Source: Zootoca vivipara
Lineage: Eukaryota
DNA length: 64,000 bases
Direction: 5' to 3'
Assembly: GCF_963506605.1 (NCBI RefSeq)
Contig: NC_083281.1
Location: forward strand, 14,012,001-14,076,000
This document shows positions 42,701-60,379 of the stretch, in pieces. Numbering within the stretch: the first letter of the stretch is position 1; each line of letters begins with the position of its first letter. A program made the position numbers.

Positions 42701-45700
42701 GCCTGCCTGTTTCCAATACATCTTCTACATACATGATGGCGCAGAGAAGAACCCTCTGGCTACTTATTTGTTTTCTATACCGCCCTATACCCGAAGGTCT
42801 CAGGGCGGTTCACATAAAATATCAAATACAGTAAACCTAAAATCAAAACAAAACCAACAACCCAATAAAAAAACCCCCAAAGAGCCAGCATTTTTAAAAA
42901 GGTTATAGGCTGTTTTCATCCTGCTAAAAGCTGGATCGTTTCTTAACGATCGTCCCCCCCCCCTTCGCCCCGCGCACGTTTTGAGCAGCCCCCGTTTCTA
43001 ATAATAATAATAACAATAATAATAATAATAATAATGCCATTTTCTTTGGAAGGGGGATCTCCTCAGCAGCCCTCTTTTTAACGGGGGAGGGAAGGCCATG
43101 GTGGGGAGAGGGGGGTCTCCTCCCCTTTTCTTTGAGAGAAGGGGGTTGGAGAACACGTGTTCTTTTCAGACACGTGTGTGCGCGTCTCCCCGCTTCCCAT
43201 CCTTCGCTCCCCCCCCCGAGGGTCCCATGGGGGAAGACGATTGGGGGTCCCTCTTGTCCCCCCCCCGCCCCCTCACCTTGAACTCGGCGAGGGTGAGCCC
43301 CCGGGCGTATCTCTTGAGGGCCCGGAAGGAGTTGAGGGTGCTGCTGATGGATACGGACACCACCGCGGGGGTCCCCGTCACGACGCTCATCCCGACCCGG
43401 CTGCCCGACCCCCTCGGACAGAAGAAACCGCCGCCGCCTCAGCCGCCTCAGAATCCCCTCACGGGCCGCTCTCGCCGTCCGGCCAATCAGCCACCGGCCG
43501 CTCCCTCGGCCAGCCAATCGCCCCGCGCTCGGTCCGCCCCCGTGACGTTCCTCGCCAATCAGAGTCCGAGGCTCGCCACCACGCACGAAGAAAAACGCAG
43601 CTCAAGCTTTCGTTTTTCTTCCCTTCTCCTCACCGCCTCTCTCTTATCCGTGAAGCCCGAGCGGAGAATTCACCAGTAGGAAGCTGGGATGTTTCCAGAG
43701 TGGCCAATGGCAAGGGGCGGTGCGGAAGCGAAGGAGGGGGCTGAAGCCGGCTGGAAGTGAGGGCAAAGCTCCTGGCGGAGCATGTACGCAGTGCATTGCT
43801 GGTAGGCAGGCAGGCATTCACCGATGGGGAGCGGAGGCAGTGATGGGGTGGAGTGGGGGGAAGGTTTGTAGTACTACCGGTAGTAGTACTTGTCATAATA
43901 ATACTAATAGTACTAATGGTAATGGCAGGCAGCTTTTCACCGATGGGGAGCGGAGGCAGAGGAGGGGGAGGTTTGTAGTACTAGTAGTATTAGTAGTACT
44001 CGTAGTAGTAATACTGCGAGTACTACTAGTACTAATAGTAATTGCAGATCCCAATTTTGCTCAGGCTCAAAAACATAGACTGTTGAAATGGAATATCAGT
44101 AAGCTGGCAAGGTGGGCTCAGACCAAATATGCCCAAAGGCAGGGGTCAGCAACCTTTTTCAGCTGTGGGCCAGTCCACCATCCCTCAGACCATGTGTTGG
44201 GCCGGACTATTTGTTTTTTTGGGGGGGGGGAATGAATGAATTCCTATGCCCCACAAATAACCCAGAGATGCATTTTAAATAAAAGCACACATTCTACTTA
44301 TGTTAAAATACCAGGCAGGCCCCACAAATAACCCAGAGATGCATTTACCTCAGTTTATGAACACCTCGGTTTACGAATTTTCGGTTTACGAACGCCGTGG
44401 ACCCATCTGGAACGGATTAATTCACTTTCCATTACTTTCAATGGGAAAGTTCGCTTCAGTTTATGAACGCTTCAGTTTATGAACAGACTTCTGGAACCAA
44501 TTACACCCATGCTTCGGGTTAAGTACGCTTCAGGTTGTGTATTCCGCGTACCCGTCTGGAACGGATTAATCCACTTTCCATTACAGTATATATATAAAAA
44601 TGTAAAAAAGGTGAAACTGTGAGCTCCACTTTTCTCCGAAACCGCTTGACCGATTGTCCTGGAATTTGGACACAACGGTCCATGCCACTACCCGAGTGTT
44701 TGCACAACCTCTGATTGCTCACATCTCATACCTGCGCAGGTAAAAACCTGCTTTTCCACAAACTAAAACAGCGCCCTCAAGTGGTGTTATTCCCACAGCT
44801 CCTCCTCCACCTCTTCCTCCCTCCCCATGGAGTCTAGCCCACACCCACAAACCCCGCCTCCGCCACGAGATCCTGTAAAACAGGGGGACTCTGAGACTCA
44901 GAGGGATCTGAAGGGGGGCTATTACCCTCCATTTGACAGACTAACGCACAGCAACACGTGCAGGGCCAGCTAGTTTTAAATAAAAGGACACATTCTACTC
45001 ATGTAAAAACACGCCAATTCCCAGACCGTCCGCGTTGCTCTAGCCTTTAGGGAGCTACTGTTCCCAGGACCCTTTGAAACTATGGTTCCCAGGAACTGTT
45101 GCAGGGGGTTGGACTAGATGACCCTTTGCATAGCTGTCAACTTTCGGATTTGAAAATAAGGGATCAGCAGCCTCACCTGTCCTGGGGACAGTCTACGGTA
45201 TATCTAACAATCCAGGATACCAGCAGGGAAACGGCGCTGGAATAAGGGGATTTCCAGCAAAAAAAAGGGAAGGTTGACAGCTGTGGCTTGGAATAAGGGA
45301 GTTTCCCGCAAAAAAGGGGGGGAGGGTTGACAGCTATGCCCTTGGGACCCTTCCAACTCTCTTAAGATTCTATGATTCCTTGGGGGAAGCCACATGCCTG
45401 ACACATATTGTGTGTACGCACAGCCAGAGTCGCGGTAGGTGGGTGGGTGGGGCTTCCATTGTGGGAATCCTCACTCCTGGTGGCTGCAATTTTCTCACGA
45501 CATCCACAATGACATGGTTGGCATCAGAGCGCCAGATTGCATTCCACCCATCACATTTAACCGAGATCGATGCTTCCCGGGGGGACCCCAATGCATTTTT
45601 AATTGAAAAAAACCCTGTGCTTGTCATTGCTTATTTGCAATATCGAACCCCCACCAGGAAGCCCCTCTTCACTAGAGGGCGCCATAATGCAAAGAATAAG

Positions 45701-46912
45701 GTAAAGTAAAGTGACCCCTGACCATTAGGTCCAGTCGTGACCGACTCTGGGGTTGCGCGCTCATCTCGCATTATTGGCCGAGGGAGCCGGCGTATAGCTT
45801 CCAGGTCATGTGGCCAGCATGACAAAGCCGCTTCTGGCAAACCAGAGCAGCACATGGAAACACCGTTTACCTTCCCGCTGTAGCGGTTCCTATTTATCTA
45901 CTTGCATTTTGACGTGCTTTCGAACTGCTAGGTTGGCAGGAGCTGGGACCAAGCAACGGGAGCTCACCCCGTCACAGGGATTCGAACCGCTGACCTTCTG
46001 ATCAGCAAGCCCTAGGCTCAGTGATTTAACCACAGCGCCACCTGGGTCCCCAGTTTTATTCCCTGCTGTACATGATGCTCAATGAGCTCATGGGATGGTT
46101 CTGAGCATTGTCAAAAGCATTTTGGTCGATTGAGCGATTCCTACCCTTGGGCCCTCCCTCACCCAACCCCATTTTTAATAAAAGTATTTTATTTTTTAAA
46201 AAACATCTTAGGAAAGGCCTTCTCTCCTGTGTATACAAAAGGACCTTTGCACATCGGCTGATCATAAATAAATTAGGCTGCTTACTTCTGTTCCAGAACT
46301 GAGGTGCTTTTACCCGGTCATGGGCAAACTTTTGCAGATTCAATTAGTAAGTTAACTAACTAACTAAACCCTATCCGATTTAGCAACCATAATTTCTTTA
46401 ATTGGGTGACAGCTGGTGGTGTAGTCTAAAATATCTAGAGTGCAACAGGTTGCGTGAGACCTCTTTCAGCCACCTGCCTTCCATCTTTTGATGGGGGTCA
46501 GAACTAAGTGGGGCAGTGTGTTGTCAGGATGCTTTGCCCCCTTTCCTATTCACCTGTGTTCTCTTACCCCAGTCCTGTGCCGCTCTCCGACCCCCACCCA
46601 ACCCCACTTGGAAGAGGTGAAGGGATAAGGTTGGTTCTGGCATCTGGCAAAGGGCTGGGTCTTCCTGCTGGTCTGGGGAGTCTGGCATGATTTGCACACA
46701 GAACCCCTTAATTCACAGCCCACCACACACACACACCCTGGAGATTAAGCGTAACTGAGTCTCTTCCCAGATGTCATGATAGAATTTGACAAGAGTTGAT
46801 GATGATAGCCCTGTATACGGAAGCTGTTCAATGTTTAATTTTTTATTACGTTTTTATATATGTTGGAGAGTGGCTGGGGCAACCCGGTCAGATGGGAGTG
46901 TTACAAGTAATA

Positions 46913-59000: not shown

Positions 59001-60379
59001 TTACAGGTAGGTAGCCGTGTTGGTCTGGATCGAAGTAAAATAAAAAAAATTCCTTCAGTAGCACCTTAAAGACCAACTAAGTTTTTATTTTGGTATGAGC
59101 TTTCGTGTGCATGCACACTTCTTCAGATACAGTGAAATGGAAGTACATTCACTGTATAAAGCGATCTTCAGCCATCTCAACCCTTGCTTTTTCATGCAAA
59201 ACCATTTGCAGTCGTTTGCGGTCATCAACAGCTATCAGTCAGTCAATCACCCATTTCCACCACCCTTCTGAGTGATCCCCCCTCCCCATCCCCACCCCTT
59301 CTCTACATAAGTGCCTGGAAACTTCCATTTCACTGTATCTGAAGAAGTGTGCATGCACACGAAAGCTCATACCAAAATAAAAACTTAGTTGGTCTTTAAG
59401 GTGCTACTGAAGGAATTTTTTTTATTTTGGCTCTAGGTTGTTTAGTTTGGTCAGAATCGAGTATACACTCCCTGAGTAAATGCTAAATACATGACTTCTG
59501 GTCAATGAACCACCATAGCTTCTAGAGGGCCATGAACATTTCTGTCCTGGGCTTTTTAGACTCATCTACCCATGTACTACGGTATCTGAAACCAAAGTGG
59601 TGCATTGGTTGCCATATGTGACTCCCCAGCTCTCCCACCCCACTACCAGGCGCCTCCTTGCCTCTGAAATGATCTTTATAGGGACAGCTGTTTGGAAATC
59701 AGTGCCTGAGTTTTGATTTTGGTTTTCCTCTTCCCTCCCTGTTCTCCATTTCTGAGCGCACAGACTTCGGAGCGGCCGCGCTCGAATCTATTCTGGCCCC
59801 TGACGGCTGCCGTAGCCGAAGCGCCGAAGAGAAGAAGAGCGGATGCGTGCGGCGGACGCCAGCAGCCGCGCCTGCGCAGCCCGAGTCCGAGTCCGGGAAG
59901 CCAAGCCTGAGACGGGATACGGGCGGGAGGACCGCTTTGTGCCTGCGCAGTCCGGATGGTTGCCATGGAGTCGGAAGGGGCCTACGAGCCGGGCTTCGTG
60001 GGGATCCGCTTCTGCCAGGAATGGTGAGGAGGCGCCGGGAGGCCGGAGGGGGCGGTGCAACAGAGGGGGGCGGCGGCGGGGAGAGACGGCGGGGGCCCTA
60101 TTGAACGACCCCCCAACAGTCTCCTTAGGGGGCTGGGCTAGATGAACCCGGGGGTTCCCCTTCCAACGCTGCAGGTCTATGATATGCCGAGAAGGGGAAT
60201 CGATACTCAATAACCGAAAATAAGCAGGGACTGGGATGGTTTTCCAAAACACAGTCAGGGGTCAGGGAGAGATGCACGTGGTGGGGCAGCAGCAGCAGCA
60301 GCGATCATAGTAAGGGGAATAATAGGAAATAATAACAGCAACAGCAACATATACAAGTACTACTACTACTACTACTTAT

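What the first reader, a model, noticed from the sequence alone, without database searches (positions are those of the whole stretch)
43390..59965. A DEGS-family gene sits between TBCB and POLR2I: candidate third DEGS paralog
Seen: an intact three-exon gene (82/743/144 nt, 322 aa) with all three His boxes, inside the head-to-head TBCB-POLR2I interval. Established: in human TBCB and POLR2I are immediate divergent neighbours on 19q13, DEGS1 is on 1q42 and DEGS2 on 14q32, and these regions form a paralogon (ENAH/EVL/VASP, AKT3/AKT1/AKT2). Conserved introns argue against a retrocopy. Inference: a retained whole-genome-duplication paralog lost in mammals (I recall a Xenopus gene named degs3, unverified), or a DNA-level duplicate that split the bidirectional promoter.
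Basis: partly seen in the sequence, partly recalled or inferred. Interest (0 to 1): 0.75.

Follow-up and report, generated by a model that had tools for sequence, protein, structure and literature searches.

The report
Third vertebrate sphingolipid desaturase gene
This lizard window carries an intact third copy of the enzyme gene that makes ceramide, an old vertebrate duplicate that I did not find in mammals or birds and that databases label only "DES2-like".

Summary
A three-exon, 322-codon gene lies on the minus strand: 57946-57865, 55936-55194 and 47801-47658, with GT-AG introns. It has Lipid_DES and FA_desaturase domains and three His boxes. It sits between the TBCB start (43390, minus) and the POLR2I start (59965, plus).

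The gene belongs to neither DEGS1 nor DEGS2. In a maximum-likelihood tree it pairs with Podarcis "DES2-like" (100/98) inside a sauropsid clade (100/99). That clade joins "DES2-like" genes of rays, bichir, gar, bowfin, teleosts, coelacanth, lungfish, salamander and frog in a third gnathostome clade (92/88), apart from DES1 (100/98) and DES2 (99/92).

A sauropsid-specific copy of DEGS2 is rejected (p-AU 0.004). One gecko species has a gene in each of the three clades. In four of four other squamates that could be compared, the gene shares a contig with TBCB. The window keeps 114 of 115 near-invariant family positions.

No bird or mammal row fell in the third clade. I found no paper describing this paralog.

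Not testable here: DEGS1 and DEGS2 in this same genome, microsynteny outside squamates, and enzyme activity.

It is a moderately interesting new member of a known family, already auto-annotated.

The parts
57865..57946 (-). Exon 1 CDS (82 nt, 27 codons + 1 nt). Starts MGNTGS..., a Gly2/Ser6 pattern that fits the N-myristoylation rule as I recall it.
   Evidence: Pfam Lipid_DES E 3.2e-12. 96% identical to residues 1-27 of Podarcis DES2-like.
55937..57864 (-). Intron 1 (GT...AG, phase 1). It holds (TAA)14 and (AAC)12 microsatellites at 55980-56054, just upstream of the exon 2 acceptor.
55194..55936 (-). Exon 2 (743 nt): the catalytic core with the three His boxes.
   Evidence: Pfam FA_desaturase E 8.9e-22. 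89% identical to Podarcis lilfordi DES2-like. 103 of 104 near-invariant positions are kept.
47802..55193 (-). Intron 2 (7.4 kb, GT...AG, phase 0), rich in dispersed repeats.
47658..47801 (-). Exon 3 CDS (47 codons + TGA).
   Evidence: 87% identical to residues 276-322 of 322 of Podarcis DES2-like.
47096..47101 (-). First AATAAA after the stop (559 nt downstream): a candidate poly(A) signal.
   Evidence: This is a pattern match only.
43277..43390 (-). TBCB exon 1 CDS (ATG at 43390). Further TBCB exons lie at 40047-40190 and 37297-37488.
   Evidence: Named TBCB hits at 95% identity. Ubiquitin_2 E 4.1e-15.
43000..43800 (.). CpG island over the TBCB 5' end (GC 0.58-0.70, CpG o/e 0.67-0.94).
59965..60023 (+). 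POLR2I exon 1 CDS (19 codons + 2 nt). Exon 2 lies at 63034-63088.
   Evidence: Pfam Zn_ribbon_RPB9 E 0.0017, below the cut-off. The name rests partly on recall.
59600..60400 (.). CpG island over the POLR2I 5' end (GC 0.55-0.68, CpG o/e 0.61-0.90). None lies at the desaturase 5' end (58000-58399: GC 0.52, o/e 0.45).

Best explanation
The gene is a functional member of a third, ancient vertebrate lineage of sphingolipid delta-4 desaturases. It is distinct from DEGS1 and DEGS2, and automatic annotation calls it 'DES2-like'.

The lineage is closest to DEGS2 and is present from rays to sauropsids. It most likely arose in the genome duplications at the base of jawed vertebrates and was later lost in mammals and probably in birds. 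The timing is inferred from the tree. The chromosomal argument rests on recalled human map positions.

The protein should work like its relatives (inferred from the family):
- It is an ER-membrane enzyme, probably N-myristoylated.
- Its three His boxes hold a di-iron centre.
- With O2 and electrons delivered through cytochrome b5, it converts dihydroceramide to ceramide (4,5-desaturation) and possibly to phytoceramide (C4-hydroxylation, as DES2 does).

The gene has no CpG island of its own, whereas TBCB and POLR2I each have one. This suggests tissue-restricted expression, independent of its two housekeeping neighbours (inferred).
For: Gene integrity: three exons with GT-AG introns and an open 322-codon frame. 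Pfam Lipid_DES plus FA_desaturase. Three His boxes. The window keeps 114 of 115 positions that are at least 95% invariant among 75 vertebrate rows: 8/8, 103/104 and 3/3 by exon. The single change is Tyr134Phe.

Lineage, careful IQ-TREE of 66 rows and 322 columns (support as ultrafast bootstrap / SH-aLRT):
- Window + Podarcis DES2-like: 100/98.
- Sauropsid group (alligator, 2 turtles, 9 squamates including the window): 100/99.
- Third clade of 25 rows (adding 3 rays, bichir, gar, bowfin, 3 teleosts, coelacanth, lungfish, axolotl, Pelobates): 92/88.
- Gnathostome DES2: 99/92.
- Gnathostome DES1: 100/98.
- DES2 + third + a lamprey row + a hagfish row: 83/84.

An 81-row quick tree gives the same three clades.

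AU tests:
- Sauropsid third-clade rows held with sauropsid DES2: dlnL 50.5, p 0.004.
- Held with tetrapod DES2: dlnL 23.6, p 0.029.
- Third clade held with gnathostome DES1: dlnL 18.7, p 0.045.

Same-species triplet: Eublepharis macularius has DES1, DES2 and DES2-like on contigs of 255.2, 236.0 and 59.5 Mb.

The Phrynosoma locus tags are JD844_005983 and JD844_005986. DES1 or DES2 rows match the TBCB contig length in 0 of 4 species (Lacerta, Elgaria, Varanus, Vipera).

Promoters: CpG islands lie only at 43000-43800 and 59600-60400.
Against: - Third-clade monophyly has 92/88 support, below the starred level. With exon 2 columns alone the backbone is unresolved (33 of 77 inner branches open).
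- The AU groups were named after I had seen the tree, and two of the three p values are only just under 0.05.
- The five outgroup rows are unnamed representatives with long branches (0.36-1.08).
- No residue is fixed specifically in the third clade. At the 5 sites where DES1 and DES2 are fixed differently, the third clade matches DES2 at 3 and DES1 at 1, and varies at 1. Sequence therefore gives no sign of a distinct activity.
- No expression, activity or codon-level selection data were available.
- Absence from birds and mammals rests on two lists of the best 120 rows each. Bird assemblies often lack this kind of GC-rich region (recalled).
- Microsynteny outside squamates was not examined.
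Confidence: 0.8

Rival explanations
1. A sauropsid- or squamate-specific DNA-level duplicate of DEGS2 landed between TBCB and POLR2I and then diverged fast.
For: Databases name most members 'DES2-like'. The sauropsid group sits on a rather long stem (0.15). Several squamate rows have long end branches (Salvator 0.54, Eublepharis 0.39).
Against: Holding the sauropsid group with sauropsid DES2 is rejected (p-AU 0.004). Holding it with tetrapod DES2 is rejected too (p-AU 0.029). The group joins ray, ray-finned fish, coelacanth, lungfish and amphibian genes instead (92/88; 89).
Confidence: 0.06
2. It is this lizard's only DEGS2-type gene, the DEGS2 orthologue simply moved to a new place.
For: DEGS1 and DEGS2 could not be looked for in this genome, because no tool here holds it.
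Against: The gene falls outside the gnathostome DES2 clade (99/92). That clade holds squamate DES2 from Candoia, Naja, Heteronotia, Salvator and Eublepharis. Candoia, Salvator, Naja and Eublepharis each have both kinds of gene.
Confidence: 0.04
3. The 'third clade' is not one lineage. It would be several independent old duplicates, or DES2/third paralogs mis-sorted by rate or composition effects, so there is no single 'DEGS3'.
For: Support for the clade is 92/88, not decisive. With exon 2 columns only, the non-sauropsid members fall into three unresolved groups. The lamprey and hagfish rows are unstable.
Against: The clade is recovered in all three full-length analyses. Within it the major groups are each monophyletic (rays 100/100, ray-finned fishes 98/95, amphibians 98/96, sauropsids 100/99). 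Rays, ray-finned fishes, amphibians and squamates each have rows in all three clades. The composition check flagged only Felis DES2.
Confidence: 0.1

Closest known systems
[quoted passage not shown]
   Same: Same domain pair (Lipid_DES + FA_desaturase), length (322-323 aa), three His boxes and Gly2 start. It is the nearest clade in the tree (DES2 + third clade 83/84). The third clade shares the DES2 state at 3 of the 5 sites that separate DES1 from DES2.
   Different: It is a separate gnathostome-wide clade. Exon 2 is 66-70% identical to DES2 rows, against 72-89% to sauropsid third-clade rows and 71% to a ray third-clade row. It sits on a different contig in the same species (Eublepharis, Candoia). 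It lies next to TBCB, not in the DEGS2 neighbourhood. Activity is unknown.
DEGS1 / DES1 (dihydroceramide desaturase)
   Same: Same family, fold and His boxes. 142 of 322 columns carry the same conserved residue in all three clades.
   Different: More distant: exon 2 is 62-70% identical to DES1 rows. Union with DES1 is disfavoured (p-AU 0.045).
Automatically annotated 'DES2-like' / 'DES1-like' genes of reptiles, amphibians and fishes (for example Podarcis lilfordi, Dermochelys, Python, Lepisosteus, Latimeria)
   Same: These are the orthologues: 72-89% identity over exon 2, the same clade and, in four squamates, the same contig as TBCB.
   Different: Nothing of substance. The names are inconsistent: alligator 'DES2 isoform X2', lungfish and Rhineura 'DES1-like', bowfin 'DEGS2'.
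Rodent 'DES1-like' genes
   Same: They are also extra DEGS copies beyond DEGS1 and DEGS2.
   Different: They nest inside rodent DES1 (99 SH-aLRT). They are young lineage-specific copies, unrelated to the third clade.

Membership tests
Sphingolipid delta-4 desaturase family (DEGS/DES) | N-terminal Lipid_DES domain | tested here: met
   PF08557 on exon 1 (E 3.2e-12, 46.1 bits against a cut-off of 23). Its last 14 positions fall on exon 2 (E 8.8e-5).
Sphingolipid delta-4 desaturase family (DEGS/DES) | FA_desaturase domain with three histidine boxes (HxxxH, HxxHH, HxxHH) | tested here: met
   PF00487 E 8.9e-22. HDIAH, HVDHH and HMEHH at positions 89, 128 and 259. These histidines are invariant in a 37-row alignment.
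Sphingolipid delta-4 desaturase family (DEGS/DES) | Catalysis on dihydroceramide (desaturation and/or C4-hydroxylation) | not testable with these tools
   Inferred from the family only. There is no solved relative by sequence (0 hits) and no significant fold match (0 with E <= 0.001).
DEGS2 orthogroup | Placement inside the gnathostome DES2 clade | tested here: not met
   It falls outside the DES2 clade (99/92). Forced unions are rejected at p 0.004 and p 0.029.
DEGS1 orthogroup | Placement inside the gnathostome DES1 clade | tested here: not met
   It falls outside the DES1 clade (100/98). Union of the third clade with DES1 has p-AU 0.045.
Third gnathostome DEGS clade ('DES2-like') | One clade with members from cartilaginous fishes, ray-finned fishes, lobe-finned fishes, amphibians and sauropsids | tested here: met
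   25-row clade with 92/88 support and 89. Support is moderate, and the clade is unresolved with exon 2 columns alone.
Ohnolog of the early vertebrate genome duplications | Duplication node after the split from invertebrates and before the gnathostome crown | tested here: inconclusive
   All three clades hold cartilaginous and bony vertebrates. One lamprey row groups with DES1 (98/78). One lamprey row and one hagfish row group with DES2 + third clade (83/84). This is compatible with the model, but the support is moderate and the outgroups are unnamed.
Ohnolog of the early vertebrate genome duplications | The three genes lie in paralogous chromosome blocks | not testable with these tools
   The window's neighbours (TBCB, POLR2I, an SDHAF1-like LYR gene) are human 19q13.12 genes by my recall. 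DEGS1 at 1q42, DEGS2 at 14q32 and the 1q/14q/19q/11q paralogon are also recalled. No vertebrate genome collection was available.
Processed retrocopy | No introns, poly(A) tract, target-site duplications | tested here: not met
   The gene has two GT-AG introns of 1.9 and 7.4 kb.

The most novel reading that the evidence does not exclude
DEGS3 would be a true ohnolog, born with DEGS2 in the jawed-vertebrate genome duplication. Its ancestral home would be between TBCB and POLR2I. The tight head-to-head TBCB-POLR2I pair of mammals would then be a secondary product of deleting this gene, not an ancient bidirectional unit. The enzyme, kept for over 400 million years in rays, fishes, amphibians and reptiles, would have a tissue role or a product (desaturase versus hydroxylase balance, or substrate chain preference) that neither DEGS1 nor DEGS2 covers.
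Probability: 0.3. Interest if true: 0.55.

Novelty: new member of a known kind. Interest (0 to 1): 0.4.

Why it matters
Work on ceramide synthesis treats DEGS1 and DEGS2 as the only vertebrate dihydroceramide desaturases. A third conserved paralog in rays, many fishes, amphibians, turtles, crocodilians and squamates has three consequences:
- Knock-outs or inhibitor studies in non-mammalian models may be buffered by an unrecognised enzyme.
- The desaturase/hydroxylase split between DEGS1 and DEGS2 can be studied with a third natural variant.
- The inconsistent names in databases ('DES2-like', 'DES1-like', 'DES2 isoform X2') hide one orthogroup that deserves one name.

It also gives a datable example of how a mammalian bidirectional gene pair may have formed by gene loss. 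It is otherwise an ordinary case of an ohnolog lost in mammals.

Tried and rejected
- The listing of cluster members was meant to read the other names in the frog, reptile and fish clusters, for example a possible 'degs3'.
- Paper searches gave nothing on a third paralog.
  - 'degs3': 113 papers; the 20 listed concern sets of differentially expressed genes.
  - 'degs3' + 'desaturase': 2 papers, both apparent slips in human contexts (passages read).
  - DEGS1 + DEGS2 + paralog + vertebrate: 2 papers, neither on this point. I read passages of PMC13161914. The other I saw only in the listing.
  - 'DES2-like' and five similar terms: 8 papers. Only a trout expression table lists 'degs2-like' (PMC10821180, passage read).
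  - 'dihydroceramide desaturase' + phylogenetic + 'whole genome duplication': 0 papers.
  - DEGS2 + ohnolog: 1 paper, the fungal one.
  - Subscription journals are not in the library, and supplements were not opened.
- The tree on exon 2 columns alone left the backbone unresolved, so I used full-length rows for the database proteins.
- Structure: the exon 2 model has mean pLDDT 72.4. The PDB fold search gave 0 matches with E <= 0.001. The best TM-scores were 0.43-0.50, among them the alkane monooxygenase AlkB (8f6t), all at E about 1. The PDB sequence search gave 0. Neither adds anything.
- Rfam on 43000-60500 gave 0 families.
- One search used the wrong frame for exon 2 (my slip) and was redone. 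One search had a one-base coordinate slip and was redone.
- A search for clade-specific fixed residues that might hint at a new activity found none.
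Full report
**Scope and rules.** I take the window for a squamate reptile, not human. Its TBCB exon is 95% identical to Podarcis lilfordi TBCB. Desaturase exon 2 is 89% identical to Podarcis lilfordi 'DES2-like'. The window holds no N. As the operators asked, the spliced model was handled exon by exon. The joined 322-residue protein was never assembled, searched or folded, so every search, tree row and fold for the window uses a single exon.

**The observation.** Reading the minus strand gives the following.
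- Exon 1 CDS is 57946-57865 (82 nt, ATG in a CCCCATGG context, donor GTGAGG).
- Exon 2 is 55936-55194 (743 nt, acceptor ACAG, donor GTAAGG).
- Exon 3 CDS is 47801-47658 (144 nt including TGA).
- The exon phases fit (82 + 743 = 825 = 275 codons), giving 322 codons in all.
- Separate translations are 27, 247 and 47 residues.
- Pfam finds Lipid_DES on exon 1 (E 3.2e-12), and FA_desaturase (E 8.9e-22) plus the tail of Lipid_DES on exon 2.
- The three His boxes are at model positions 89, 128 and 259.
- Exons 1 and 3 match residues 1-27 (96%) and 276-322 (87%) of the 322-residue Podarcis protein, so the three pieces belong to one gene of the expected length.

**Flanking genes.**
- The TBCB ATG is at 43390 on the minus strand. 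TBCB is confirmed by named hits and a Ubiquitin_2 domain on its exon 2.
- The POLR2I ATG is at 59965 on the plus strand. Exon 2 is at 63034-63088. The only tool support is a sub-threshold Zn_ribbon_RPB9 hit (E 0.0017); the rest is my recall of the protein.
- The desaturase gene is head-to-head with POLR2I (ATGs 2,019 bp apart). It is upstream of, and on the same strand as, TBCB (4,268 bp from its stop to the TBCB ATG).

**What it is related to.**
- Exon 2 found 3,715 proteins with E <= 0.001 among 3,779 candidates; the best 120 were listed.
- The top rows are reptile proteins named 'DES2-like': Podarcis 89%, Phrynosoma 83%, Dermochelys 83%, Hemicordylus 84%, Python and Candoia 80%, alligator 76%.
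- Next come 'DES2-like' or otherwise named proteins of bowfin, bichir, lungfish, axolotl, gar and coelacanth (72-78%).
- True DES2 rows follow (66-73%), then DES1 rows (65-70%).
- A profile-free scan of 1.84 billion representatives found 2,045 proteins at E <= 0.001. From it I took unnamed rows of 49-57% identity as outgroups.
- A second search with axolotl DES1 added squamate DES1 rows (Gekko, Lacerta, Elgaria, Varanus, Pantherophis, Eublepharis, Paroedura, Sphenodon) and Eublepharis DES2.

**Trees.** I used 73 of the 120 rows, namely rows with a species name. Unnamed 'lgn', 'ena' and 'metaclust' rows and a dozen redundant mammal and fish rows were left out.
- Exon 2 columns only (81 rows): the sauropsid group (98), DES1 (96) and DES2 (93) stand, but the backbone is open (33 of 77 inner branches).
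- For the careful tree I dropped 13 named rows as redundant or partial: Scleropages DES2-like, Naja hyp838, Lemmus, Ara, Vipera, Hypanus, Polyodon, Entelurus, Monodelphis (unnamed row), Euleptes, Pangshura, Thamnophis and Aulostomus. I also dropped the two longest outgroups.
- Careful tree (66 rows, 322 columns, the window as exon 2 only; support as ultrafast bootstrap / SH-aLRT):
  - vertebrates 100/100
  - gnathostome DES1 100/98, with a lamprey row beside it (98/78)
  - DES2 + third clade + one lamprey row + one hagfish row 83/84
  - gnathostome DES2 99/92
  - a third clade of 25 rows 92/88
- Inside the third clade, a sauropsid group (100/99; alligator, two turtles, nine squamates including the window) sits beside three rays, bichir, gar, bowfin, three teleosts, coelacanth, lungfish, axolotl and Pelobates (96/78). 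The window pairs with Podarcis (100/98).
- An 81-row quick tree with added rows keeps the three clades (DES1 99, third clade 89, DES2 89). It puts the three Eublepharis macularius proteins one in each clade, nests the rodent 'DES1-like' rows inside rodent DES1, and places all six bird rows in DES1 or DES2.

**Tests of the alternatives.**
- Holding the sauropsid third-clade rows with sauropsid DES2 costs 50.5 lnL (p-AU 0.004).
- Holding them with all tetrapod DES2 costs 23.6 (p 0.029).
- Holding the third clade with gnathostome DES1 costs 18.7 (p 0.045).
- The groups were named after I had seen the tree, so these p values are somewhat optimistic.

A recent lizard or sauropsid copy of DEGS2 is therefore not supported. 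The gene is nearer to DEGS2 than to DEGS1, but only marginally so. It has two introns, so it is not a retrocopy.

**Same-genome and position evidence.** I could not search this lizard's own genome. In relatives, the evidence is as follows.
- Eublepharis has DES1, DES2 and the third gene on contigs of 255.2, 236.0 and 59.5 Mb.
- Candoia has DES2 and the third gene on contigs of 344.0 and 27.1 Mb.
- The TBCB exon search returned 26 proteins, all but one from squamates.
- In Phrynosoma the locus tags are three apart (JD844_005983 and JD844_005986).
- As a control, DES1 or DES2 rows share the TBCB contig length in 0 of 4 species (Lacerta, Elgaria, Varanus, Vipera).

Linkage to TBCB is thus shared across lacertids, iguanians, amphisbaenians and cordylids. 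Nothing could be checked outside squamates, because the available genome collections hold only bacteria and archaea.

**Is it functional?**
- The window keeps 114 of 115 positions that are at least 95% invariant among 75 vertebrate rows. The one change is Tyr to Phe at position 134.
- Its end branch is short (0.068).
- 142 of 322 columns carry the same conserved residue in all three clades.
- At the five sites where DES1 and DES2 are fixed differently, the third clade has the DES2 state at three and the DES1 state at one, and varies at one. No site is fixed uniquely in the third clade.
- Sequence alone thus argues for a working enzyme of the usual kind and gives no hint of a new chemistry.

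**Mechanism (inferred from the family).** The protein would be a membrane-bound di-iron enzyme of the ER, with the iron held by the His boxes. It would use O2 and electrons from cytochrome b5 to turn dihydroceramide into ceramide. Given its kinship with DES2, it may also make phytoceramide. The MGNTGS start fits the myristoylation rule that I recall for DES1 and DES2.

**Promoters.** CpG islands lie at 43000-43800 (TBCB) and 59600-60400 (POLR2I), and none lies at the desaturase 5' end. TBCB and POLR2I each have their own island here, 16.6 kb apart. The desaturase probably has a tissue-restricted promoter without a CpG island (inferred). If the position is ancestral, the tight mammalian TBCB-POLR2I pair would be the result of losing this gene. 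That is untested.

**Origin.**
- All three clades contain both cartilaginous and bony vertebrates, so the duplications predate the gnathostome crown.
- The lamprey and hagfish rows split between the DES1 side and the DES2 + third side.
- This fits a first duplication shared with jawless fishes and a second one in the jawed-vertebrate stem, with moderate support.
- From memory, untested here: DEGS1 at 1q42, DEGS2 at 14q32 and the TBCB/POLR2I region at 19q13 belong to the well-known 1q/14q/19q/11q fourfold block (TGFB2/3/1, ACTN2/1/4/3, AKT3/1/2, ENAH/EVL/VASP).

**Novelty.** The orthologues are already in public databases under inconsistent automatic names. In six searches of the open-access library I found no paper that describes a third vertebrate DEGS lineage. 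The 'DEGS3' strings I read were slips. I rate this a new member of a known kind. It is solid and useful for the sphingolipid field and for annotation, but it is one more ohnolog lost in mammals. Interest 0.4.

Noticed in passing
window 16217-18052 (+) and 20113-22116 (-): Two long single-exon ORFs (612 and 668 aa, stop to stop) carry the KAP family P-loop NTPase domain (E 1.4e-17 and 6.1e-20). They are arranged tail to tail. They look like a duplicated NKPD1-like pair; that name is recalled.
   Followed up: partly
window 30041-30310 (-): A single-exon ORF has a Complex1_LYR domain (E 5.7e-11). It looks like SDHAF1 (name recalled). It lies on the 3' side of TBCB, which by my recall is a different gene order from human.
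   Followed up: partly
window 55980-56054: Perfect (TAA)14 and (AAC)12 microsatellites lie about 45 bp upstream of the exon 2 acceptor of the desaturase gene. They are a possible source of length polymorphism near the branch-point region.
   Followed up: no
window 48101-48379 (-), 48675-48881 (+), 15065-15424 (+), 62205-62750 (+): The same repeat-derived ORF fragment recurs in intron 2 of the desaturase gene and elsewhere in the window. It is a dispersed element family and was not classified.
   Followed up: no
window 60326-60862 (+), POLR2I intron 1: A 178-aa open frame follows an (ACA)n microsatellite. It looks like the tail of a retrotransposon ORF. It was not checked against any library.
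   Followed up: no
database rows P0013, P0016, P0026, P0014: Third-clade genes carry conflicting names: alligator 'DES2 isoform X2', lungfish and Rhineura 'DES1-like', bowfin 'DEGS2'. One orthogroup is hidden under several labels.
   Followed up: yes
database rows P0297, P0311, P0294: Rodent 'DES1-like' proteins form a group nested inside rodent DES1 (99 SH-aLRT) with long branches (0.23-0.30). They are a separate, young rodent duplication.
   Followed up: partly
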